In this document: positions 20,729 through 60,062 of the stretch, in pieces
Layout: every line of letters starts with the position of its first letter
Position numbering within the stretch: position 1 is the stretch's first letter
Assembly: GCA_951406725.2 (NCBI GenBank)
Contig: OX597817.1
Location: forward strand, 43,710,001 to 43,774,000
Length of the DNA: 64,000 bases
Reading direction: 5' to 3'
Origin: Octopus vulgaris
Lineage: Eukaryota
Notes under the pieces: generated by a model
Told to the model about the DNA's origin: nothing
What the model saw: the letters and a program-made list of their open reading frames with translations, nothing else
The model's database searches: none
Translations under genes and position numbers: made by a program

Positions 20729-21791
20729 TATAATTATGAGTATAATTATAATTAGGGTTCAGCAAAAAAATTTGCTTCACCACATACCGAAATTAGAGAT
20801 AGCAGCCAAAGAAATTAGCTATTTCTCTACCATAAGACAATCATATTGTCTAATATGAGCGTATTTTTGTGTTTGTTCCTAACAACCGGTGTCGTTACTT
20901 AGTGGTTCGGAAAATAGAAACTGATAGAATAAGTACCAGGCTTTGAAAAAGTGTACTGGAGTCGATTTGCTCGCCTAGACCCTTTAGGGCGGTATCCCAG
21001 CGTGACCGCATTCTAATTTCTGAAACAAATGAGTTAAAAATATAGATTCGTGCAAATACACGTAAAAGAAGCGAACTCATGACCGTGTAAGACCACTTCT
21101 TAAACTCAGGAAGTCTATACAAAAATTCTGACAGTCTAAGACGTTCCCGTGCGTTAATTTGGCGCCAGTAAAATGTTGCACAGACAGATCAGAGGTTGAA
21201 ACGTCTAGGAACCAACTACACTTTGGGTTTCTTAAACGAGCTTACCTTCTCCTAGAAGGAAGTTCTCAAGAAAACTTGGGGGTCATTCACTTCCAGTGGT
21301 TCACATGCTAGTTAATACAGAACTGGGACCCTAACAAGTGTCACTACTCCGGGTCAGAGTAGATTTTGGGGGAAATAATGGCTAAGAGATGGTTCCACAC
21401 CAGGCGCGGGCCCAGGAATTTTTCGAAGTGAGGGCACAAGGTTAGAAGGGAATACAATTCCAGGAGAAAAGGGCGTAATAACATTATTTAGAAGGGCGCA
21501 CTTCTCTTCTTGTGGGGAGCACGTGCCTCTCATCGCCCCCACTGGGTCCACCACTGAACACTCCTCAAAACTCTGGACTTTCAGTACAAGAGACTCACTA
21601 CCGGATGTAGTTTAAATTCAAATCAAGGATATACATACATACATACATACATCAGCACACCAACTCAACCACACATTTACATACATTGGGAAGTCTCTTA
21701 ACTCAAAAAGTCTTGTCGTTTTGTTAGCGACCGGCTTGAACTCTTCAGAGAACTTAAATTAAACTCAAAGGAAACCATACATATTTACGTA

Positions 21792-22662
21792 CTGGTCTTA
21801 TCAATAAGTATCCGGACTGTTGCTATAGTAACGAAACTAAAGCACGCAGAGTGAAGCCGCTTGGCACAAATTGACCTTGAACTCTGTTGAGCATGTGCAC
21901 TAGGTTTCAACGTCCTAGCTCACTTCCGCTGTTTACAGCAGAGCTTGGAAGGAACGCATGTAGTGTGTAATAGTCGCATTGACGAAGATAAAGTTGAGGA
22001 GAGAATCTGTATCAAATTTTGCCGAAAGCTTGGTGATACCTGCTCAGAGGCCTACGCAAAGTTTTCAAAAAGTTTTCATCATTCTTGACACCATCAAGGA
22101 AAAAATTGTGCAATTGAAACCCGAGTATCTTTTTGGTCAGCTGAAAGCAGTTTTGGCACAAACTTGGCAGACACGTGTCTCACACTGAAATCTTCAGTGA
22201 TAATGGACTAAACTGAACTGTAACTAATCTGCACATCCTCTGATAACTCACGGATGGTGATTCGACGATTTCCCCTCACAGCTGCACACACACCTGCAAT
22301 GTTTTTCTGAGTTCTGATGGTTGTGGGTCTCCCGGAACGTTCGTCAAAATCGACATTTTTTCAGCCATCTTGGAAACGTCAGAACTACTCGTACACTTGT
22401 GTTTAGCTCATACACTCCTCTCCATACGCTTTCTGCAACTTTATGTAAGCCTCTGAGCAGGTATCGCCATGAGAACTTTCTGTGTCATGCTATACATCTT
22501 CCTTCCAAGCACTGCTGTAAACAGAAGAAGTGAGCTCGAAAGCTAAAATTTAGTGCGCATGCACAGCCAAGTTCAAGGTCAATCTTTGCTAAGCGGCTTA
22601 ACTCTGCATGCTTTAATTTCGTTACTATGGCAGCAGTCTGGATACTTATTGATCAGACCTCG
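21792..22662. mobile_element. mariner-derived non-autonomous element with long TIRs
   Basis: TIRs ggtc(t/g)atcaataagtatcc(g/a)gactg... flanked by TA. Transposase N-terminal HTH on both strands: + ERICIKFCRKLGDTCSEAY; - GDTCSEAY..RSGRP..RRITIREL..FVPKLL, with stops. Confidence 0.88.
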
Positions 22663-24274
22663 TAATACATACATACATTTATACGTACCTACATACATTC
22701 ATTTATAATAATACATACATACATACATACATACATACATACATAAACCTAGAAATACTCGGTTTCACGGAAAAAGAGCAAAAGAAATTGAAGCGGATTC
22801 TCCTAATCCAAGCTATTAAGTGGCACAGTGAAGATTTGTAAGACATTCTATGTGAGATTCTTATGCGAATAGATGCACACACTTCGGTGTATGCATCGAT
22901 AGTTCAACCAACACACTAATCAACCACAAATTTACAAATACCGGGTACTCGATATAAAAACAATATATATATGCTTACACCCAATCACCCACTTACACAC
23001 ACACACAAACTCCACTGCAGTGATATCTGCTTAGCACATAGCTATTTATCCTGACCATGTCATCGCTCAACAGAGGCTCCTACTGCACATTCTACAAATT
23101 TAGTGATAGTAATAAATGCTATAGGCTGCAGTGCGTCACTTAGAATATATACACTCTTTGCATTTCACTCGCTGATTAAGCTGATGTCCATAGCAGAAGT
23201 GGTCAAGATGGTCAGGGAGTAACTGTTAGCGTTTCTTTTTTGTATTTGTGTTGCAAAAATTCTTGACGTGAAAACATGTTGAAACTGATTTTAGGACAGT
23301 CACACTGCCAATGAAAACACGTTCACTGGTTATGTTTCACTTCATTTTTATTACCAATAACCTTTTAAGTGAATTTGGTGGACGGAAATTGTGTGGAAGC
23401 CCGTCACCTGTATATATATATATATATATGTATGTATATATGTGTGTGTGTTCGTGTTTATGTTTGTCACCCCAGCTTGCCACCGCTTGACAATCTGTTG
23501 CTTTGTTAATGCCTTCACAACTTAACGGTTCAGCAGAAGATGTCAGTAGAATAAGTACCAGACTCAGAAAAAACAAAAACAAATATAAATACACTAAAAA
23601 CTAATTTTCTTGAATACACTGAAATTGGGGTGCGTCTATTATGTAATCAAATATCGATTCTCCGGAATCGATAAGTAATCGTATTATATTGGTGTCAACT
23701 TTATCTCTCCGCATCAAAAACTGATTGCATGCTTAAAGAATAAATCAATATCTAATGATATATATACATACGTATATGTACATACATCTATATGTATGTA
23801 TATATGCACATGAGGGCATAGGACGTCATGAAACGTGTACGAGTACATGGAATATGAACTATGTTTTCGAACAACGAAAGGCACAAATGGAAAACAAGAC
23901 TAATAACATAAAGAACGACCCTTCATCAGTTGTTGGCTGTTTTTCTGCTCTCATATTTCGAGCATTTAACAACAATATACGCTTTCGATAAAAAAATTGT
24001 TCCCGCAAAGCAAATTAAATATGGAATTTTGCGGAGGGTCGAAATTGGTAACACAAACAGAACAGTGGAAACAAACAGGAATGGCTACTAAGCCTAAACG
24101 AAGTTGTGGTGGCGAACGCGTAAATCAAGCTTGGATAAGAGACAGACAAGAACACGTCTTCCTTGTTCCAGCTACAACGGAGAAAAAGAAACACAAGTTA
24201 GGAGAAGAAATAATGATGGCCATGGGAGCCACGTGAGCAAGGAAGGAGGAGTGAGGGAGAGAGAGCGACATATT

Positions 24275-32436: not shown

Positions 32437-32655
32437 ATGATTGATCGATCATATTGGGGTAAAAAAATCGAAGAGACTGGTGTACGCCAGCATGGAACAT
32501 CAAGCCGTATTTTAGGTATTGGCATTTTCATCACCGGATTACTGTTTCTGGCTGTTGCTCTCATCATGGGATTTGAGTTCCCCAAACTCATCTACACTGG
32601 AATTACTGGTCGGCAGTGTTATTTCTCTGACCAAAGTATAAACTATGAACAATGG
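32437..32655 (+). CDS. CD36/SCARB (LIMP-2/croquemort-like) family gene, coding exon 1: cytoplasmic N-tail plus TM1
   Basis: Translates MIDRSYWG...ILGIGIFITGLLFLAVALIMG...SINYEQW, with a hydrophobic helix followed by the CD36-type 'S..YE.W' motif. Donor TGG|GTAAG at 32656, phase 0. The start codon is less certain because there is a possible acceptor at 32411. Confidence 0.8.
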
Positions 32656-35964: not shown

Positions 35965-37170
35965 TTATTATTATTAAGGTGGCGAGAAGGCAAAATCGTT
36001 TGGGTATCGGACAGAATCTATAGCAATATTTCTTCCAACACACTACATTCTGAGTTCAAACTCCGCTGAGATCGACCGCTAGTCTTTTATATCGAACCCA
36101 ATGCTCGACTGGTACTTATTTTATCGACCCCGATAAGATGAAAGGCATTTCATCTTATCGGGGTCGATAAAATAAGTACCAGTCGAGCATTAGGGTCGAT
36201 ATAAAAGACTAGCTCTTCCCCCTAAATTTCAGGCCTTCTCCCTATAGTGGAAAGGGTTATTGTTTTGTTTTTTCCCCACCGGAATTGTTGCTGTGCCCGG
36301 TTTAATTGTATTCCATATCGAGGCACTGCCTGTGATCTCGGATGAAGAATATTTTGTGCCTTCTGTATAAAAGACTTTCTTGATAATTCATGTTTTACGT
36401 AGTAGATATATTTTTTACATTGCACCTTACTCTTATGTTTTTCCAGATTTGTTTACATTTTTTCCTCGCTGTTTCTTAGGCTTCCGTAATAATTGGCAGT
36501 ATCACGACCTTGTTAACTTTAAGGTTCCAGCATTTGAAGGTTTCATACTTGCAATCAGTATAATACATTTCTTTTCCGAGGGCGGCGAGCTGCCAGAATC
36601 GTTAGCATACGCCGGCGAAATGCTTTGCGGTATTTCGTCTGCCGATACGTTCTTTGCCTTTCATCCTTTCGGGGTCGATAAATTAAGTACCAGTTACGCA
36701 CTGGGATCGATGTAATCGACTTAATCCGTTTGTTTGTCCCTTGTGAGTAGTGAAGAAATAGACATATCGTCTGCCGTTATGTTCTGAGTTCAAATTCCGC
36801 CGAGGTCGACTTTGCCTTTCATCCTTTCTGGGTCGATTAAATAAGTACCAGTTACGCACCGGGATCGATGTAATCGACTTAATCCCTTTGTTTATCCCCT
36901 CTATGTTTAGAAATAAATACTTTACTTTTCCGAATAGGCACGCCACATCGATTTTAGTATTTACTTCTTGTAGATGACTGTTGTATTCAATTTGTTGCGT
37001 TCTGCTCTTTCAATTTGTACAAGAAAGCCACGCAGCAACCTCACGTTGTCGTTTCTGAGTACTGGCATTTTTTCTGTGCTAGCAAAACCAAATTTCCTGC
37101 AAAAATTGCTGTGTATCATTGCAACACTCTTATGGTTATACTTCTTGTATTCATTCTGAGAAAGTTTAAT
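34805..37170 (-). mobile_element. highly degraded R4/Dong-like (RLE) non-LTR retrotransposon fragments, interrupted by SINEs and the Gypsy element
   Basis: Frameshifted remnants LEKLDRKK.., ETEVFLI..RN..I, RICG.., DTPMHTEIKGNR. Similar remnants at 27800-28490 (-, FDSVPHTWI) and 22745-22850 (+, LEILGF...GTVKICKTF). Confidence 0.55.
36078..36213. repeat. 66-bp-arm palindrome inside a SINE copy
   Basis: Arms 36078-36143 and 36148-36213 with 2 mismatches; 4-nt loop GGCA. Confidence 0.95.
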
Positions 37171-37177
37171 GACACTC

Positions 37178-37376
37178 TGTTATGTGTAGTTTGAGTTCTA
37201 ATGGGATAGACAACCAATATGAAAGCCATTGTTATTGTTTTACGTGTTTATTTACTATTCATGTTACACGGACTTCAACATACTTTACACACAGTTTGTA
37301 CTGTTCACTAACAAAATAGTGCCAAAAGTGGGGAAGTATTCTACACACGTGTACACATAGATATGAATGTGTAACA
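37178..37376 (-). repeat. 3' LTR (199 bp)
   Basis: TG...CA ends. Immediately preceded on the minus strand by the polypurine tract GTAGAAGAAGGGA (37377-37389). Confidence 0.95.
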
Positions 37377-37554
37377 TCCCTTCTTCTACAAAAAAAAATA
37401 AAGGGGTCTTTTGGCAGTGAAGACAAATATAAGTAGTCTCCCTTACTCTAATGGATTGTCAGCGCCAGGTGGCAATCCTGCAGCAGAAACGGTGAGATTC
37501 TTCTGCCTCTGCTTTGTAATCTAGCTGAATTAGTTACTTACCTTTTCATTTTCT

Positions 37555-38787
37555 TTAACGGTATCGAACCGGTGGCAGAATGTTCTTTCTCCATCTGGTG
37601 GATATTGTGCTTCGCACCGGTGTCTGAGGTGTGTTGTTGGGCTGCTGATAGGTGGTTGGTGCCCGTTGGGGTGATGATTCTGTGGGTGTTGTCACCGATG
37701 CTGTGGGTGTTGTCACTGATGCTGTAGGTGTTGTACACGTTGTCCTCGACAGCTTTGGTGTTGGGCGGATGTGGGCCCTGTTGCGTCTCAGCTGCCTACC
37801 AGATTCCGTTTCTATTATATATGATCTTGGAGTTTCAGCTCTACTGACAACCTGTGCTGGGATCCATGTTTTAGTTGTGGGATCTTGAGTATGCACATGT
37901 TGTCCTCCAAGTATCTCAGGTAAGTATTGTGCATGTTTGTTGTAATATTTCTGTGATTGTTCTTGAGTGGCTGCTAGCTTTGCCCTTGTCTCTTCCTGGT
38001 CAATAGGAGGTTGGATCTTAGTTGGCAGGGTAGTTTTGTACTTCCTGCCATTCAGTAATTCTGCTGGGGATTTCATGTCAGCTCTCAGTGGTGTCGCTCG
38101 TAGGGACAGAAGTGCCAGGTGTGGGTCTTCTTTAGTCTCTCGGCATTTGACTAGTGTTCTCTTCACTGTCTGCACCTGTCTTTCTATAAACCCATGACCT
38201 TTGGGGTAGTGTGGAGATGAGGTTGTAGTATTGAACCCATACTCATCGGCTAGCTTTTTGAATTCTTGCGATGTGAACTGGGTTCCATTGTCACATATGA
38301 TCTGCTCTGGTATTCCTTGCTCTGCTAGAAGTCCTCGAGCCACTGTAGTGATTGTTTTGGCCGTCAGGTCTTTCACTTTTCTCACAAATGGAAATTTGGA
38401 GTAGTAGCAGGCCATTATCAAATACCATTCTTGGCCCTCTGTGAACAGATCTACTCCGATAGTTTGCCATGGCCTTCTTGGGATGTCACTAGATATCATT
38501 TCCTCCTTTTGTTGTGAGTTTCTGTACTTATGACAGATGTGGCATGTAGAAACTGTCTTTTCTATGTCTTTGTACATGCCTACCCAATATACTGCTGACT
38601 TGGCTCGGAGCTTGCATTTCTCCATTCCTAGATGCCCTTGGTGGATCTTGTCAAGGATCTCTTTTTGCATTGACTTGGGTATAATTATTCGGGATCCAGC
38701 CATCAGGATTCCATTCTCCACTGATATATCATCATGGATGGCCCAATATTCACGAATTAGGGGCTGCACCTGATGTCTCTTTTCTGG
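37555..38787 (-). pseudogene. Gypsy integrase, in frame with the upstream polyprotein after the stop
   Basis: HHCC zinc finger (HQGH...CHIC) and DDE core (VDLF, CDNG, IER). The C-terminus has a TTPTASV 21-bp repeat. Confidence 0.93.
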
Positions 38788-41580
38788 TCACCCCTGAATC
38801 ACCATCTGAGTAAGGAGCTGAAGTTCTTCATCTTTGCTGGTCTCCTCTTTGATTTCCGCTAGCTTTGTGGTTGTCACATCTACAATGTGGTGGACCTTTA
38901 TGCTTAGTCCTTCCATCTCCTGTTTATCATGTGAGGATAGTCTGGAAAGAGCATCCGCCAATATCAGGTCTTTTCCTGGCTTGTACCTGATATCATAGTC
39001 GTATGTTTGAAGCCTTAGTAGTAATCTTTGCAGTCTGGCTGGTGCTTTTGTCAGGTTTTTTCTCTGTATTTTTTCTAGCGGGCGATGGTCTGTTTCTATA
39101 TTGAAATGTCTGCTATACAGGTATGTATGGCACTTTTCACATCCATATACTACTGCTAGGAGTTCCCTTTCAATATTTGTGTACCTTGTCTCTGTGGGTG
39201 AGAGAGCTTTCGAGGCATATGCCATGGGTTTACCTTCTTGTATCAGTGCTGCACCAACTCCTCTCATAGAAGCATCGACTTGGAGTGTTACTGGTTTGCG
39301 TCTGTCATAGTATTGCAGAGTTGTCTCCTTACTGATGAGCTTTTTGATTGTTTTGAAATCCTGTGTGTGTGAAGCACACCAATCAAACTCTACGTCATCT
39401 TTGTTTAGTTCTCGGAGATTTTCAGTGTGATCGGCCAGCTTGGGTATGAAGGCTCCCATGTAGTGAATGAGTCCCAGGAAGCTCCTGAGTTCCTTCTTGT
39501 CTTTGGGTTCTTTAATGTCTCTGATGGCTTCCACTTTAGCGGGGTCTGGTTTAACTCCCTCTGCAGAGTATATAATTTCAAAGAATTTGCACTCCTTTGC
39601 TTTTATAACACACTTGTCTGCATTGAGTTTGATGCCTGCTTGTCGGGTTTTCTCCATAGCTTCATGTAAATTGAACTCATGTGTGGTTTCACCCTTGCCA
39701 TGCACTTGGATGTCATCTGCTATTCCAATTGCTCCCTTGCAGCCTTGGTAGGTCTCATCTATTTGGCGCTGGAAAACATCTTGGCTCACCTTCAATCCAA
39801 ATGGGAGTCGGTTGAATCGATATCTGCCAAATGGTGTGTTGAAGGTAGTGAGCATGGATGACTCTTTGTCCATCTTTATATTCCAGTACCCATTACTGGC
39901 ATCCAGTTTGCTGAATAATTTGGATCCAGCCAATGATGGTGTGATTTCTTCAAGGGTTGGAATTGGATGGTGCTCTCTTTTTAATGCTTTGTTCAGGTCC
40001 CTTGGGTCGAGGCATATCCGTAGGGTACCATTGGGTTTTTCCTTGATTACAATTGAATTCACCCAGTCTGTTGGTTGTATCACTTTGGTGATTATTTCTT
40101 TTTTATCCATTCTGTGCAACTCTGTCTTCAGCTTCTCTTTTAGTTCTAGAGGGACGCGGCGAGGTGGGTGAACAATTGGTTTGATATTGGGGTCGACTGT
40201 TATATGATATCGACATTTCACAAAGCACCCGACTGTATCGTCAAAGCATTCAGGGTACATGCTTATCAGTTCCTCTTTGTTTGTGATTTGTGGTCGATCT
40301 TTGATAGGCATATCACTGTCAATCCTGCTTGGAGCTGCTTTCACTTCAGCATTGATTGATACAATATTTAGCTTTTTGCAGGTATTGAGTTCAAGAATTG
40401 CTGGTCCTTCTGTTCTTGTGACATAAAAAGAACACTTGATTGTTTTTCCTTTGTGTGTCCCTGTGATAGTTGTTTTACCCAGTTGTGGAATCCTGGTACC
40501 TCCGTACGCAGTGAGGATTTCTTCTTTGACTTTATCCTCTTGTGTCATGTGTTCTGGGAACATCTTTTTGTAGAGGTTGACAGGCAAGATATCACTCTGG
40601 GCTACAGTGTCAATCTTTAGCCTTAAGTCTATGTTTATTCGTTTCCTGTCAGACTTCTTTTGTATTCTTATAGTCATGTATGCCTCATTTTTTCTCTGGT
40701 CGTCATTTCCCATCTCATGCACATTTATTGTGCCGACTGCCAAGAATTCCTCTTTTGAGGTGTTTTGTTCTTGGGCATGTATATATCTTCTTCTATTTCC
40801 GCTCCTCTTTGAAAATTGGGGCTTGTTTTTCTGGGATTTTGTTAACCTACACATTTTTTCCCAGTGGTTAAGTTTTCCACATGCTTTGCAGTGTGTACCG
40901 AATGCAGGACATTTCTTCCGGTTGTCGAACTCATGCTCAATACCACAGTACTGGCATGTTCTTTGTTTGCGGGTATGTTTCGTCCTGTGCCTAGATACAA
41001 TATCTACACTACTGCCTAGTGAGCTTGTTTGTAAGGTAAGTGAGGCCATTTGTTTGGTAGTGGCTTCGAATGCTCTTGCAGTGTCTACTGATTCTATCGA
41101 CTGGAGAGCGTCCTTACCTATGAGGGATTTCTGAACTTCCTTATGAGCACACCCCCATATTAATTGATCAACAATTCTTTCGTCCTTATCTTTGAATTTG
41201 CATTTTTCGGCAACATTCTTTAGTCTGGACAGGAAATTGTCAATCGTTTCTTGTGGGTCTTGTTTCAGGCTCTGGAATTCGTATCTGCGAATTCTATGGT
41301 TCGATCTGGGCTCTAGGAGCCTTTCAAATTTCTCTGAAAGTGTGTCTGGGTTATTGCAATCCGATTCTGACATATCCCAGCTATTGAATAGGTCTAGACC
41401 TTTATTGCCCGTCCATAAAAGGATATAGCTTACCTTCTCATCGTCAGTTGTGCCTTTCAGGAAACTTTTGAAAGCTAGTTGAGTTTTCTGTTTGAATTTC
41501 TTAAATGCTTCTACGATATCAACGGAATCCCAGTTCATAATCGGATGTAGATTCATCTGTACGGCGACGGGGGTCGCCAT
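38788..41580 (-). pseudogene. Gypsy gag-protease-RT-RNase H polyprotein ending at a premature stop
   Basis: Zinc knuckles CQYC..H..C and CKACGKLNHWEKMC; protease IDT(V)AQ (degenerate DTG); RT LDASNGYW, LPFGL and IADD; RNase H VDAS, ERELLA and TDH. TGA replaces the Trp of the conserved GWP motif. Confidence 0.93.
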
Positions 41581-41694
41581 CTTGGATCGTCGTGTATGTG
41601 TGTGTCCGAAGACGAAGCGATGTTTTGTTTGTTAAATTTCTGGTTCGTTGTGTTTCTGTTTTGTTGTAAAGGCACAGTTTCCGATTAATTATTT

Positions 41695-41707
41695 ACCGCT
41701 GCCACCA
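41695..41707 (-). promoter_or_regulatory. primer-binding site, tRNA-Leu(AAG/TAG) type
   Basis: TGGTGGCAGCGGT directly after the 5' LTR, complementary to the ...ACCGCTGCCA-CCA 3' end of metazoan tRNA-Leu(NAG). Confidence 0.85.
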
Positions 41708-41928
41708 AGTTATGTGTAGTTTGAGTTCTAATGGGATAGACAACCAATATGAAAGCCATTGATATTGTTTTACGTGTTTATTTACTATTCATGTTACACG
41801 GACTTCGACATTCGGCGTAGTGATACACTATATACTTTACACACAGTTTGTACTGTTCACTAACAAAATAGTGCCAAAAGTGGGGATGTATTCTACACAC
41901 GTGTACACATAGATATGAATGTGTAACA
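41708..41928 (-). repeat. 5' LTR (221 bp)
   Basis: Direct repeat of 37178-37376, differing by about 4 substitutions and a 22-bp extra segment. Contains TATATA and AATAAA on the minus strand. Confidence 0.95.
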
Positions 41929-46088: not shown

Positions 46089-46247
46089 ATACGTGAAGTC
46101 GGACCCTATGTCTATAAAGAATCTAGAAAACATACACAAATAGATTTATTAGGATCAAAGCTATCTTATGAAATATTACGACAGCAGACTTTTGATGAGC
46201 ATCAAACGAGGTTAGAATGTGGTATAAATTGCCATGAAAATGATAAG
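46089..46247 (+). CDS. CD36-family gene, exon 3
   Basis: tttcag| IREVGPYVYKESRK...CHENDK |GTATG. Contains the hallmark E(V/I)GPYxYxE motif. Phases 0/0. Confidence 0.92.
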
Positions 46248-47166
46248 GTATGTTCTCTCTTTCTCCTTCCTTTTTTAAATTGGCCATTATGATGTTCAGT
46301 TTACGGTGAAAATACTTGCTAATTTGATATTGGTAAAGTATAAAAATTGTATAATTGATACCAACATTATTGATTTGCTTTAATCTTACAAGATGAACAA
46401 GTTAATAATATAATTTTGTTTTTGTTTCAAAAGTGGAAAAACATAACATTAATGTTCAAACATTCAAGTGGTGCCATAGTAAAATAAACAGTTTACTGGT
46501 TAATAGAAACCATAACAAGGCCTTTATGTAGGCTTACTTCATGTTAGCCAATGTCTTTTGAAAGGGTATAATTACAACAAAATTCTCATTTACCCTTACA
46601 CTAAAACACAGGTTGTTTTTTCTCTACCCAATCAAAACATATCTAGTAATTATACTGCTACTAATAGACCTAGGGTTAGATTTCTTGATTTCAAGTTTGT
46701 AGCTCTTTTCAACCCTTGACAGCGGCTTTTTTTTCCCTATTGCTCTTGGGCAAAAAATCACACAAACTCATTTTATTTGCCTTTTGAATCAACCAGAAAG
46801 TTACTTAGACCTAGTTTAGCTCTGAGTGAGGAAACCATTCCAGCAATAACTGCCTCATCTTTATTAAGATGTCATATCTAAAGTTAAATTATTCAATGTA
46901 GAGCTAAATATACAATGTTCTGGGTACTAAGGTGAGGTATGAGGGAGATATGGTTGCTATTTCTAGTACCTTGATTGGTTATGCAGAGATTCTGTCATTA
47001 CTGCATGTCAAGGGAAATGTCTGAGGCAAATACTTTTATTTGCAGCTAAGTCTTTTAAGAACACCAGAGCTGAGTGTCTGCTGCATTAGCCTGACCAATA
47101 TTAATATGTCATTTGTATTGCTTTAGAATTAATCCAATATATTTCTTCTTATTTCATACTTGGAAG

Positions 47167-48058
47167 CTGAACATTTTGAACTTGGAATACTTATACAATG
47201 TTTCTTTGTGGGGAGGAGAAAATAATTTTATACTTTCAAACATCCCTGATCTCTTACAACATCAACTTCATTTAGCTTTCATATTATATAATGGCACAGA
47301 CTTTTATGGGGACTTAGCGAAATTCCCATCAGACGATTGGTTGCAGAGTAACCCGAATGCTTCCCTTAATTGGTCTATCACTAATTGGATAACTCAACAG
47401 ACGATAATACCCAAGCTGTTATTAACAAACTTGTCTTTCAACACAGATGAGATACAAGCTCTGTACAATGTGATTATAGATCCTCAAAAATTTGGTACAA
47501 CCTGCTTAAATGGTCTCAAGAGTTCCACCCAATGCATTAAAGCTGAACAGAAGATGACTGAAAATGAATGTGTTGATAAAGACAATAATCAGCATTGTAA
47601 AAATGCACAAAAAACAGAAAAGCAGAATTCTACATCTGAATTTGGCTTAATTCAACATTTAGAAAATTGGAAATCAACCAATGACACGATCCATCATGAA
47701 CATATCCAACAGTTATTATGCTCGACTGTTGCAAACTTCTCTATCAATTCCACCATTGACTGTTTTGTCTTTGACAAACACAACAAGACTTTGAATATTT
47801 TCATGGATTTGCTCTTTGATTATGTTTTCTCTCACTTGGCCTTGCTCAGTCATAATTCTTTGCCACCAGAATCCAGGAATCTAATTTTCACAACTACTCA
47901 ACAGGATATAGCAAAAGGTTATTTTACAGGAGAATACAAGCACAAAGGTATCTTGACTAACAATTTTGATGTGAAAGACACATTCCAGGAAAACCCCAGG
48001 TGGATATTTTATACCTGCCTTCATGAAAACCATATTAAAAACAACTTTCTTCTGACTG
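47167..48058 (+). CDS. CD36-family gene, exon 4 (892 bp, enlarged apex region)
   Basis: Stop-free frame (ORF 47113-48093). Pyrimidine tract then ggaag| LNILNLEY..., later LIFTTTQQDIAKGY (resembles LFxxxTVxELLxGY). Donor G|GTAAG, phase 1. Confidence 0.85.
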
Positions 48059-48269: not shown

Positions 48270-48518
48270 AATATGACAACCATACCTGCATCCCAGCAAT
48301 TTACTTCCCACGAGTCACAGCATCATCAAAGCTAAAAGTGAATGGTTACGTATATTTTACACCACAGGCTCCACTTACGACTGTATGCCGAACCCCAGTA
48401 TTTTACTCAGATAAATATTCAATGTTTATGCCTGAGTTCTGGCGAACATTAACGTTTTCTAAGCAGAATGAGCTAGAAATGAACTGTGTCAGAGTGGGCA
48501 GATATTTACCTGTTAATG
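48270..48518 (+). CDS. CD36-family gene, exon 5
   Basis: ttgcag| (E)YDNHTCIPAIYFP...KVNG...FMPEFWRTLTF...VGRYLPVN G|GTAAG. Phases 1/1. FMPEFWRTL resembles FxxDxCRS. Confidence 0.85.
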
Positions 48519-51064: not shown

Positions 51065-51222
51065 ATGAATTCAAAGTCGATGGATTCTTCATTGAAGAGG
51101 ATGGTATTCAGAATGTTACTCAACAATATGGTTATATGAGTTTCTTAAGTCATCCCTACTCAACAGCCAGCAACATTACACAAGTAGAAAGAAAAACAAA
51201 AAGCAACAAATCCCATTGTTAT
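51065..51222 (+). CDS. CD36-family gene, exon 6
   Basis: ttcttag| (D)EFKVDGFFIEEDGIQNVTQQYGYMSFLSHPYS...KSHCY |GTAATT. Phases 1/0. Resembles GxxDvSxxxxGxPxxxSxPHF. Confidence 0.85.
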
Positions 51223-53386: not shown

Positions 53387-53581
53387 ATATATATTGAACC
53401 AGTAACAGGACAGATTTGGCATCGAGTAATCAGTTTCCAGTTTAACATCAAGATTTCCAGAAAACTGTTTGATTCTAAATGGAAGCAGCCTCTCAATTTG
53501 GCTTCTTTTGAACATCTCTTACCAGTTTACTGGGTGAAAACAGTTACAACAATGACACAAATTCAGCCATACAAAGATTTT
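53387..53581 (+). CDS. CD36-family gene, exon 7
   Basis: tttcag| IYIEPVTG...FQFN...LLPVYW...KDF |GTAAG. Carries the hallmark IEPxTG, QxN and PxxW motifs. Phases 0/0. Confidence 0.92.
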
Positions 53582-56802: not shown

Positions 56803-56946
56803 GTAACAAATATGAGGAGATGGGCATGTGGAGGTTTGATCAGCTTTACTCTCCTAGCTTTGTCCATCATGATGTGTGGTAGCTTTATCATCTTTAAGCC
56901 TTATGTCTTCAACAGAGTGCATCCTTTACCAGAAACAACTACTTGA
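56803..56946 (+). CDS. CD36-family gene, terminal exon 8: TM2 plus short cytoplasmic tail (absent from the ORF track)
   Basis: ttgttgcag| VTNMRRWACGGLISFTLLALSIMMCGSFIIFKPYVFNRVHPLPETTT*. This supplies the expected second TM helix in phase 0. The eight exons sum to 2109 nt, or 702 aa. Confidence 0.8.
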   Translation, partial: VTNMRRWACGGLISFTLLALSIMMCGSFIIFKPYVFNRVHPLPETTT

Positions 56947-57743: not shown

Positions 57744-58015
57744 TGTGTCTATGGAATTATAGAATACTGCCCTGACATCTCTGGTGATGCTGTTGCTGTG
57801 CAGTACATCAAGCAAAAGGTCACTTCACTGCTTTGTATACATCATCATCATCATCATCATTTAACGTCCACTTTCCATGCTAGCATGGGTTGGACGGTTC
57901 AACTGGGGTCTGGGGAGCCCGAAAGCTGCACCAGTCCAGTCAGATCTGGCAGTGTTTCTACAGCTGGATGCCCTTCCTAACGCCAACCACTCCGAGAGTG
58001 TAGTGGGTGATTTTA

Positions 58016-60062
58016 TGTGCCACCGACACAGGTGCCAGACGAGGCTGGCAAACGGCCACGCTCGGATGGTGTTTTTTATGTGCCACCGACACAGGTGCCA
58101 GACGAGGCTGGCAGACGGCCACGCTCGGATGGTGTTTTTATGTGCCACCGACACAGGTGCCAGATGAGGCTGGCAAACGGCCACGATCGGAAGGTGATTG
58201 TTACGTGCCCACAGCACGGAGGCAAGTCGATGCGGTACTGGCTACGGCCACGTTCGGATGGTTTTCTTGTGTGCCACGTGCCACCGGCACTGGTACCACA
58301 AAGATACAAATTCCATTGATGTTCATCTATTTTGATTTGTTTTGATTTTCACTTGCCTCAACAGGTCTTCACAAGTGTCACAAGAAGGAAGGTATGCACA
58401 GGTGGACTGACTACGTCCCAGGTAGGGGCCATGGGTTATGGCCTGACTAGTCTTGCCGGGTCTTCGGATGGTGTTTTTATGTGCCACCGACACAGGTGCT
58501 AGATGAGGCTGGCGAACGGCCACAATCGGATGGTGTTTGTCATGTGCCCACCGCACTGACTACAGCACTGATGGATTTCTTGTGTGCCACAGGCACTGGT
58601 ACCACAAGATACAAATTCCATTGATGTTCATCTATTTTGATCTATTTTGATTTGATTTGATTTGATTTTCACTTGCCTCAACAGGTCTTCACAAGTGTCA
58701 CAAGAAGGAAGGTATGCACAGGTGGACTGACTAGTCTTGCCGGGTCTTCGGAAGGTGTTTTTATGTGCCACCGACACAGGTGCCAGATGAGGCTGGCAAA
58801 CGGCCATGATCGGATGGTGTTTGTTACGTGCCCACAGCACGGAGGCCGGTCGATGCGGAACTGGCTACGGCCACGTTCGGATGGTTCTCTTGTGTGCCAC
58901 CGGCACTGGTACCACAAAGATACAGATTCCATTGATGTTCATCTATTTTGATTTGTTTTGATTTTGATTTGATTTGATTTTCACTTGCCTCAACCGGTCT
59001 TCACAAGTGTCACAAGAAGGAAGGAATGCACAGGTGGACTGACTACGTCCCAGGTAGGGGCCATGGGTTATGGCCTGACTAGTCTTGCCGGGTCTTCGGA
59101 TGGTGTTTTTATGTGCCACCGACACAGGTGCTAGATGAGGCTGGCGAACGGCCACGATCGGATGGTGTTTGTCATGTGCCCACAGCACGGAGGCCAGTCG
59201 ATGCGGTACTGGCTACGGCCACTTTCGGATGGTTTTCTCTTGTGTGCTACCGGCACTGGTACCACAAAGATACAAATTCCATTGATGTTCATCTATTTTG
59301 ATTTGTTTTGATTTGATTTTGATTTTGATTTTCACTTGCCTCAACAGCCTTCACAAGTATCACAAGGAGGAAGGTATGCACAGGTGGACTGACTACGTCC
59401 CAGGTAGGGGCCATGGTTTATGGCCTGACTAGTCTTGCCGGGTCTTCGGATGGTGTTTTTATGTGCCACCGACACAGGTGCTAGATGAGGCTGGCGAACG
59501 GCCACGACCAGATGGTGTTTGTCATGTGCCCACAGCACGGATGGCCAGTCGATGCGGTACTGACTACGGCCACTTTCGGATGGTTTTCTCTTGTGTGCTA
59601 CCGGCACTGGTACCACAAAGATACAAATTCCATTGATGTTCATCTATTTGATTTGTTTTGATTTTCACTTGCTTCAACAGGTCTTCACAAGTGTCACAAG
59701 AAGGAAGGTATGTACAGGTGGACTGACTACGTCCCAGGTAGGGCCCATGGGTTATGACCTGACTAGTCTTGCCAGGTCTTTTTATGTGTTTTTTTGGTGT
59801 TTTTATGTGCCACCATGTTCCCACAGCACGGAGGCGAGTCGATGCGGTACTGGCTACGGCCACGTTCGGATGGTTTTCTTGTGTGCCACAGGCACTGGTA
59901 CCACAAAGATACAAATTCCATTGATGTTCATCTATTTTGATTGATTTTCACTTGCCTCAGCAGGTCTTCACAAGTGTCACAAGAAGGAAGGTATGCACAG
60001 GTGGATCGACTACGTCCCAGGTAGGGGCCACGGGATATGGCCTGACTAGTCCTGCCGGGTCC
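58016..60062 (-). repeat. tandem array of about 280-350-bp units (ORF stop plus 3'UTR) with about 62-bp subrepeats
   Basis: ctagtc(t/c)tgcc at about 58447, 58731, 59079, 59429, 59763 and 60046; ttccattgatgttcatctat occurs 6 times; three gtgccaccgacacaggtgccaga units at 58016-58200. Confidence 0.93.

What the first reader, a model, noticed from the sequence alone, without database searches (positions are those of the whole stretch)
47200..47880. CD36/LIMP-2-family receptor with a ~200-aa extra domain at the ligand-binding apex
Seen: eight phase-compatible exons give about 702 aa. Between LNILN and LIFTTTQQDIAKGY lie about 235 residues, containing 6 Cys and 10 N-x-S/T sequons, all within one 892-bp exon. 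Known: animal CD36/SR-BI/LIMP-2/SNMP proteins are about 470-550 aa, and this interval is only about 30-35 aa (helices a4-a5, the glucocerebrosidase/PfEMP1/oxLDL-binding apex). The longer Dictyostelium Lmp proteins (about 750-780 aa) are the architectural precedent I recall. Inference: a divergent scavenger-receptor subfamily with an uncharacterised disulfide-bonded cap domain, either ancient and lost in model animals or a lineage-specific gain.
Basis: partly seen in the sequence, partly recalled or inferred. Interest (0 to 1): 0.75.

Follow-up and report, generated by a model that had tools for sequence, protein, structure and literature searches.

The report
Octopus CD36-type receptor with ancient cap
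This spliced octopus gene encodes a CD36-type membrane protein whose small ligand-binding tip is replaced by a ~230-residue cap, predicted to be helical, that is shared with snails, bivalves, annelid worms, corals and jellyfish; it very likely belongs to a long-tipped group already noted in 2023, and it likely handles lipids at the cell surface, possibly on cilia.

Summary
Observation confirmed. Eight exons give 702 aa. Exon 4 (47167-48058) lies unbroken inside spliced contigs, so the 233-aa apex (6 Cys, 10 sequons) is real; short relatives have 31-36 aa there. The core folds like LIMP-2/CD36 (Z 32); the apex alone models as helical with no PDB match.

It is not octopus-specific and not a new phenomenon. 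Orthologues with the same apex occur in gastropods, bivalves, annelids and cnidarians, and probably an ostracod. Boohar et al. 2023 (PMC10715195) already describe apex expansions at helices a4/a5 and a cnidarian-lophotrochozoan clade with ectodomains over 500 aa.

What is added here: cnidarian and bilaterian apexes are homologous (HHalign 98.8%), and a core-only tree recovers the clade (99/96). Both argue against the long-branch artefact those authors could not exclude. A cytoplasmic [RK][VI]xP motif sits in 13 of 13 bilaterian-type tails and 0 of 42 other SR-B tails. It resembles ciliary sorting signals, but such motifs predict little alone.

The scan earlier found apex-expanded CD36 homologues in archaea; a link was inconclusive. 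New member of a known kind.

The parts
32437..32655 (+). Exon 1: start codon, short cytoplasmic N-tail, TM1 (about aa 24-46, 32506-32574), clade-conserved C61
43319..43411 (+). Exon 2: first long beta-strand of the CD36 barrel
   Evidence: loose ends join it to exon 3
46089..46247 (+). Exon 3: EVGPYVYKE family motif, barrel strands, clade-conserved C148/C152
   Evidence: PF01130 E 7.9e-5 on this exon alone; joint to 47167
47167..48058 (+). Exon 4 (892 bp): LNILN anchor, apex cap, hinge, C441
   Evidence: continuous in single contigs of X10 and X8; weak AAG acceptor confirmed by reads
47182..47880 (+). Apex cap, aa 163-395 (233 aa), predicted all-helical; conserved G205, W231, F248, E252, L256, Y257, G267, C292, C342, C356
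   Evidence: no PDB match
47719..47763 (+). C342...C356, the most conserved Cys pair of the cap (disulfide inferred)
   Evidence: C in 21 of 22 rows at each position
47881..47922 (+). LIFTTTQQDIAKGY strand-helix hinge closing the apex (likely motif M6 of Boohar et al.)
   Evidence: strand 397-401 and helix 402-407 in the model; G408 invariant in 22 rows
48270..48518 (+). Exon 5: C494 and FMPEFWRTL strand region; skipped in the O. bimaculoides X2 model
51065..51222 (+). Exon 6
53387..53581 (+). Exon 7: IEPVTG motif and C-terminal barrel strands
56803..56946 (+). Exon 8 coding part: C664, TM2 (aa 664-686, 56827-56895), cytoplasmic tail, stop; 3' UTR runs to at least 57207
56914..56925 (+). RVHP: conserved [RK][VI]xP motif in the cytoplasmic tail (candidate sorting signal)
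   Evidence: 13 of 13 bilaterian-type tails, 0 of 3 cnidarian-branch tails, 0 of 42 other SR-B tails; window residues

Best explanation
This is a spliced, single-copy octopod gene for a class B scavenger receptor (two membrane helices, CD36-type ectodomain) from an old cnidarian-bilaterian clade in which the short a4-a5 tip is replaced by a ~230-aa cap predicted to be helical, and it likely works as a cell-surface lipid capture and hand-over receptor whose cap would set ligand or partner specificity. Shown: gene structure, splicing, family, clade, apex homology from cnidarians to molluscs, purifying selection with faster change in the cap. Predicted: the LIMP-2-like barrel and the helical cap. 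Inferred from the family: the cap docks a lipoprotein, lipid carrier or microbial surface, and lipid then passes through the barrel tunnel to the membrane or a partner receptor. Inferred from the tail: no LIMP-2-type dileucine signal (pattern recalled) but a conserved [RK][VI]xP motif, so plasma membrane rather than lysosome, with cilia or another apical compartment as the leading guess (about 0.3).
For: PF01130 86.4 bits against a cut-off of 26.5 on the 97%-identical orthologue, in two stretches. Model aligns to LIMP-2 4F7B at Z 32.1, rmsd 3.0, 354 of 390 residues, and to CD36 5LGD at Z 31.4; Foldseek E 1.8e-15. Named orthologues: Argonauta, Haliotis, Pecten, Biomphalaria, Aplysia, Mytilus, Pomacea, Elysia, Plakobranchus, Ridgeia, Paralvinella, Stylophora, Actinostola, Nematostella, Sanderia, Darwinula. 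An apex profile from 4 cnidarians alone finds the bilaterian apexes (E down to 5e-15; octopus 1e-3 at Z=1000) and no short or non-animal long protein under E 1; HHalign 98.8%, E 9e-17. Core-only tree, apex removed: 16 long animal rows on one branch at 99/96, with a cnidarian branch (4 named cnidarians and 1 unnamed row, 99/92) and a bilaterian branch (100/99). pN/pS 0.315 in the apex against run X8 (p 0.017 against neutrality), and 13 of 18 differences to O. bimaculoides fall in the apex (p 8e-4), as expected of a constrained but fast-changing recognition surface. Only this locus matched in the genome (stricter search, a floor). Boohar et al. report a conserved barrel and tunnel across SR-Bs and apex expansions at a4/a5. 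Mouse CD36 sits in olfactory cilia (PMC4584952 abstract).
Against: No ligand, location or expression data. The tunnel was not examined in my model. The core is very divergent (16-18% identity to LIMP-2/CD36 in the structural alignment) and lacks the canonical Cys set, so transport could be lost. VxPx occurs in 58% of mouse proteins, has no predictive value alone, and its role in polycystin-1 was not reproduced (PMC5409180 passages). The 3 cnidarian-branch tails lack the motif. No RFX X-box near the first coding exon; the one perfect X-box in the window lies in a transposon end. Apex model is moderate (mean pLDDT 74.5; 44 of 233 residues under 50).
Confidence: 0.6

Rival explanations
1. Pattern-recognition or phagocytic receptor: the enlarged, glycosylated, faster-evolving cap binds microbes or dying cells on haemocytes or epithelia, and lipid transport is secondary.
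For: SR-Bs act as pattern-recognition receptors (PMC10715195 introduction passages; PMC5119243 abstract passages on cnidarian symbiosis). The apex changes faster than the core: 63% against 81% identity to Argonauta.
Against: One copy found per genome in the octopus search, with no expansion of the kind immune receptors often show (general knowledge); pN/pS is well under 1.
Confidence: 0.2
2. LIMP-2-like lysosomal protein: the cap is a docking site for a lysosomal hydrolase, and the ten sequons shield it from proteases.
For: Best sequence and structure matches in the PDB are LIMP-2; 14 sequons in the protein.
Against: Only LIMP-2 and CD36 represent the family among the PDB hits, so the ranking says little. 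The tails show no acidic dileucine or YxxL-type signal (patterns recalled), and sequon positions are not conserved.
Confidence: 0.15
3. Artefact: the insert is a retained intron, a transposon remnant, or an unstructured linker under no selection.
For: The exon 4 acceptor is a weak AAG site; residues 272-314 are modelled with low confidence.
Against: Spliced contigs carry the whole exon; homologous apexes from jellyfish to octopus; purifying selection.
Confidence: 0.01

Closest known systems
Long-ectodomain cnidarian-lophotrochozoan SR-B clade of Boohar et al. [quoted passage not shown]
   Same: Ectodomain over 500 aa, helical expansion at a4/a5 before the M6 hinge, canonical Cys pairs absent, cnidarian plus lophotrochozoan membership. 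The ectodomain here is about 616 aa, equal to their metazoan maximum (boundaries set by eye, knowing that number).
   Different: Their main text never names Octopus and the supplement could not be read. They treat expansions as independent and could not reject long-branch attraction. In the passages and sections I read they mention neither a clade-specific Cys set (C61, C148, C152, C441, C494, C664), nor the tail motif, nor an arthropod member. Octopus has Ile where 18 of 22 rows have Phe (I228), so it may not be one of their eight sequences.
Vertebrate LIMP-2/SCARB2, CD36, SR-BI and insect SNMP/Croquemort (Pfam PF01130; PDB 4F7B, 4Q4B, 5LGD)
   Same: Two terminal TM helices, short tails, asymmetric beta-barrel (Z 31-32), GPY and EP.TG motifs.
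   Different: Apex interval 233 aa against 31-36 aa; canonical disulfide cysteines replaced by another set; separate branch in the core tree, although one clade with the short proteins is not rejected (AU p 0.216).
Long SR-Bs of protists (Dictyostelium LmpA-C, oomycete and ciliate SR-Bs) and the archaeal CD36 homologues in this scan's earlier notes
   Same: Same barrel with a large helical apex; the Atlas's nearest clusters are a 716-aa mostly oomycete one and an 896-aa archaeal one.
   Different: The oomycete-branch insert lies mostly after the M6-like motif and does not match (HHalign 0.4-1.2%). Four unnamed long proteins outside the animal clade give score 21 against a shuffled 15 +/- 2.8, max 22.7: inconclusive. 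Lmp and archaeal sequences were not in hand.

Membership tests
SR-B / CD36 family | Two terminal transmembrane helices with short cytoplasmic tails | tested here: met
   Hydropathy peaks at about aa 21-54 and 662-691; long helices 21-60 and 650-686 in the model
SR-B / CD36 family | PF01130 above the curated cut-off | tested here: met
   86.4 bits against 26.5, two stretches, on orthologue P0002; exon 3 of the window alone 21.8 bits, E 7.9e-5
SR-B / CD36 family | Asymmetric beta-barrel ectodomain | tested here: met
   Predicted model against 4F7B: Z 32.1, rmsd 3.0, 354 aligned
SR-B / CD36 family | Intramolecular lipid tunnel and pocket | not testable with these tools
   Model coordinates are not returned; Boohar et al. 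report the tunnel across the family
Canonical short SR-Bs (CD36, SR-BI, LIMP-2, SNMP types) | Compact three-helix apex, ectodomain under 500 aa | tested here: not met
   233 aa against 31-36 aa
Canonical short SR-Bs (CD36, SR-BI, LIMP-2, SNMP types) | Canonical disulfide cysteines in the C-terminal half | tested here: not met
   FMPEFWRTL where short rows have D.CR, and no Cys in aa 528-588; the genome's canonical gene keeps its Cys cluster
Long cnidarian-lophotrochozoan SR-B clade (Boohar 2023) | Ectodomain over 500 aa with expansion at a4/a5 before motif M6 | tested here: met
   About 616 aa; insert ends at the strand-helix hinge 396-409
Long cnidarian-lophotrochozoan SR-B clade (Boohar 2023) | Groups with long cnidarian SR-Bs in a tree | tested here: met
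   99/96 with Nematostella, Actinostola, Stylophora and Sanderia, apex columns excluded.
Long cnidarian-lophotrochozoan SR-B clade (Boohar 2023) | Lacks canonical Cys pairs | tested here: met
Long cnidarian-lophotrochozoan SR-B clade (Boohar 2023) | Invariant F788, W812, L1188 (their alignment numbering) | tested here: inconclusive
   Supplement unreadable. Order fits columns 228 (F in 18 of 22; Ile in octopus), W231 (20 of 22), L256 (17 of 22)
Dictyostelium Lmp-type / protist and archaeal long SR-Bs | Homologous apex domain | tested here: inconclusive
   No match to oomycete-branch rows; borderline score to four unnamed long proteins; no Lmp or archaeal sequence fetched (one search found none)
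LIMP-2 orthologues | Acidic dileucine lysosomal signal in the C-tail (pattern recalled) | tested here: not met
   17-residue tail holds no such pattern
(K/R/Q)VxPx ciliary cargo (polycystin-1, polycystin-2, rhodopsin) | Cytoplasmic (K/R/Q)VxPx motif | tested here: met
   RVHP at 693-696; conserved in 13 of 13 bilaterian-type tails; motif defined in PMC3172256
(K/R/Q)VxPx ciliary cargo (polycystin-1, polycystin-2, rhodopsin) | Motif-dependent localisation to cilia | not testable with these tools
   Needs imaging; the motif alone is not predictive (PMC5409180)

The most novel reading that the evidence does not exclude
Animals have a second, overlooked SR-B lineage, older than the cnidarian-bilaterian split, with its own apex fold and disulfide set; in bilaterians it gained an RVxP ciliary signal and serves as the lipid-sensing co-receptor of sensory cilia in molluscs and annelids, a counterpart of insect SNMP1 built on a different cap.
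Probability: 0.2. Interest if true: 0.7.

Novelty: new member of a known kind. Interest (0 to 1): 0.36.

Why it matters
It turns a doubtful eight-sequence branch in a 2023 survey into a well-supported old orthologue group with one shared cap domain, found single-copy in octopus and present in model or farmed molluscs (Aplysia, Biomphalaria, abalone, scallop, mussel) and in Nematostella. The cap has no solved relative, so it is a tractable structure target and a natural test of how the CD36 tip sets ligand choice. The conserved tail motif gives a cheap, direct test of ciliary location. The architecture itself is already in print, which limits surprise.

Tried and rejected
Internal intron in exon 4: only two weak donor-like sites and no acceptor-like site; contigs run through. 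Alternative exon 4 acceptor at 47127: out of phase, and the spliced contigs use 47167.

Known domain in the insert: Pfam gives only Rot1 at E 0.044, below cut-off; Atlas structure rows TM 0.30 or less, feature hits under 0.8; Foldseek best E 1.6; VIA best Z 4.9 among 48,161 chains. This absence does not prove a new fold.

Word-index homologue searches found only the three octopod proteins; the wider family came from phmmer (114 hits).

RFX X-box as support for cilia: one perfect site at 21819, chance level (17 of 100 shuffles reach the count), lying in the end repeat of a mariner-like element. Rejected.

Claim that the clade lies outside all other animal SR-Bs: the tree suggests it (97/94) but the AU test does not reject one clade with the short rows (p 0.216), and the short rows are unnamed.

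Link to protist or Asgard apexes: inconclusive; a scan of prokaryote genomes with three non-animal-type proteins found no relative.

Ostracod apex: not found by the cnidarian-only or mollusc-only profiles, HHalign 0.35-6%; its membership rests on the core tree (long branch), Cys set and tail motif.

Literature: 8 searches. None of six orthologue LOC ids appears in any full text. The ciliome preprint 10.1101/153437 has no CD36, SCARB, scavenger or LIMP in its main text; its supplements are closed. No run was on record as RNA, so tissue and level of expression are unknown. No complex prediction was run.

Full report
Observation. The window is G000:C4:43710001-43774000 of a 2.8-Gb genome. Named homologues place it among octopods. 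Eight exons from 32437 to 56946 join in phase with GT..AG introns into 702 aa with two terminal hydrophobic helices. Between LNILN (158-162) and LIFTTTQQDIAKGY (396-409) lie 233 aa, window 47182-47880, with 6 Cys and 10 sequons, inside the 892-bp exon 4. Contigs of public runs (labelled 'RNA?' by guess) show the joints 46247>47167 in 3 of 4 runs and 48058>48270 in 2 of 4. Single contigs in two further runs span exon 3 and all of exon 4, and others join exons 5-8. The O. bimaculoides model LOC106880172 X1 has the same length and 684 of 702 identical residues.

Family and fold. The orthologue scores 86.4 bits on PF01130 in two stretches. An AlphaFold2 model from a 22-row alignment (mean pLDDT 77.1) aligns with LIMP-2 at Z 32.1 over 354 of 390 residues and with CD36 at Z 31.4 (Foldseek E 1.8e-15). 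Short relatives have 31-36 aa in the same interval in the 9 of 24 rows that a strict pattern matched, and the genome's separate canonical CD36 gene on C5 has about 27-30. The net gain is about 200 aa. Folded alone, the apex is all-helical (pLDDT 74.5, with 44 of 233 residues under 50) and has no convincing match in Pfam, the Atlas or the PDB.

Range and age. phmmer gave 114 hits. I looked up 30 of them: long orthologues occur in gastropods, bivalves, annelids, anthozoans, a scyphozoan and an ostracod, with intervals of 175-258 aa in full rows. A profile built without octopods finds the octopus apex at E 4e-15 among 132 proteins. One built from four cnidarians alone finds the bilaterian apexes and none of the short or non-animal long proteins under E 1. 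Bilaterian and cnidarian apex profiles align at 98.8%, E 9e-17.

Tree. A tree of 52 rows on 316 core columns, with the apex and hinge left out (4 of 56 rows dropped as fragments), puts all 16 long animal rows on one branch at 99/96. A cnidarian branch (4 named cnidarians and 1 unnamed row) and a bilaterian branch separate inside it. So the cap dates at least to the cnidarian-bilaterian ancestor. Whether the clade is older than animals is open: the tree sets it apart from the short rows at 97/94, but one clade with them is not rejected (AU p 0.216), the short rows are unnamed, and the tree is unrooted.

Constraint. G205, W231, E252, C292, C342 and C356 are kept in 20-21 of 22 rows. C316 is kept in 18 rows but is Phe in octopus, and C270 and C280 are not shared beyond octopods. 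Sequon positions are not conserved. Outside the cap the clade has its own Cys set (C61, C148, C152, C441, C494, C664) and lacks the canonical one. Against run X8 the apex shows 8 silent and 10 replacement differences, pN/pS 0.315. It changes faster than the core: 13 of 18 differences to O. bimaculoides, and 63% against 81% identity to Argonauta. RNA editing could account for an A>G difference or two.

Tail motif. All 13 bilaterian-type rows with an intact C-tail (12 distinct clusters; 3 rows unnamed and assigned by similarity) carry [RK][VI]xP shortly after TM2. None of 3 cnidarian-branch tails and none of 42 other SR-B tails does (43 given, 1 without a detected TM). The rows are related, so these are not independent draws, but most of them are only about 25% identical to the octopus protein. 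The window protein has RVHP. This fits the (K/R/Q)VxPx ciliary signal of polycystin-1, polycystin-2 and rhodopsin (PMC3172256, passages). Against it: VxPx is in 58% of mouse proteins, and the polycystin-1 result was not reproduced (PMC5409180, passages). An X-box search gave nothing usable. The conservation says that the motif is functional; it does not say what it does.

Mechanism. Most likely (0.6) a plasma-membrane SR-B: the cap captures a lipid-bearing ligand or partner, and the barrel passes lipid on, as established for CD36, SR-BI and SNMP1 (family knowledge). Ciliary or apical location is a guess at about 0.3, with mouse CD36 in olfactory cilia as precedent (PMC4584952, abstract). Rivals: immune or phagocytic receptor (0.2), lysosomal LIMP-2-like carrier (0.15), artefact (0.01).

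Prior knowledge. Boohar et al. [quoted passage not shown] This gene meets every criterion of that clade that I could test; the invariant residues could not be mapped. Octopus is not named in their main text, and their supplement may settle whether it was included. Neubauer et al. 2016 (PMC5119243, passages) do not mention an insertion. None of six orthologue LOC ids appears in the searched library. This scan's earlier notes describe archaeal CD36 homologues with large helical apexes; none matched this protein by sequence, and my test for a shared apex with non-animal proteins was inconclusive.

Verdict. Real and well supported, but a new member of a described kind. The additions are the proof of apex homology across Cnidaria and Bilateria, the clade-specific cysteines, a probable arthropod member and the conserved tail motif. 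Interest 0.36.

Noticed in passing
window 37170-41928, minus strand (intron 1): Ty3/gypsy-type LTR retrotransposon, about 4.76 kb, with near-identical LTRs (95-99%; one lacks 22 bases), so a young insertion. Gag-pol frame of 947 aa with RT and RNase H (Pfam), broken by an in-frame stop at about 38788 from a 410-aa frame that looks like integrase by eye.
   Followed up: partly
window about 21790-22665: Mariner-like remnant of about 870 bp with terminal inverted repeats and a broken transposase start; its repeats contain perfect and near-perfect RFX X-box matches (21819, 22621), so this element family could scatter X-boxes through the genome.
   Followed up: partly
window 48270-48518 (exon 5): O. 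bimaculoides isoform X2 (P0001, 619 aa) skips this 249-bp exon in frame, which would remove barrel strands. One contig of run X8 begins at 48367, beside an out-of-phase AG at 48368, perhaps a minor acceptor.
   Followed up: no
G000:C5:19992729-20011126 (L001-L003): The genome's canonical short SR-B gene with the usual Cys cluster; the only locus that the PF01130 search found, so octopus may have just two SR-B genes (search is a floor).
   Followed up: partly
proteins P0024, P0028, P0046, P0068, P0075, P0085, P0094, P0104, P0107: Oomycete-branch long SR-Bs carry a Cys-rich insert after the M6-like motif, not before it, yet share a Cys near position 152 with the long animal clade and branch beside it in the core tree.
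   Followed up: partly
window about 57900-60060: GC-rich tandem array of long units (several hundred bases) about 1 kb downstream of the stop codon, next to a LINE-like stretch on the minus strand; seen by eye only.
   Followed up: no
window 32455-32466 (aa 7-10): A Trp-x-x-Lys-like motif in the N-terminal cytoplasmic tail recurs in most mollusc orthologues, a second candidate sorting or binding signal.
   Followed up: no
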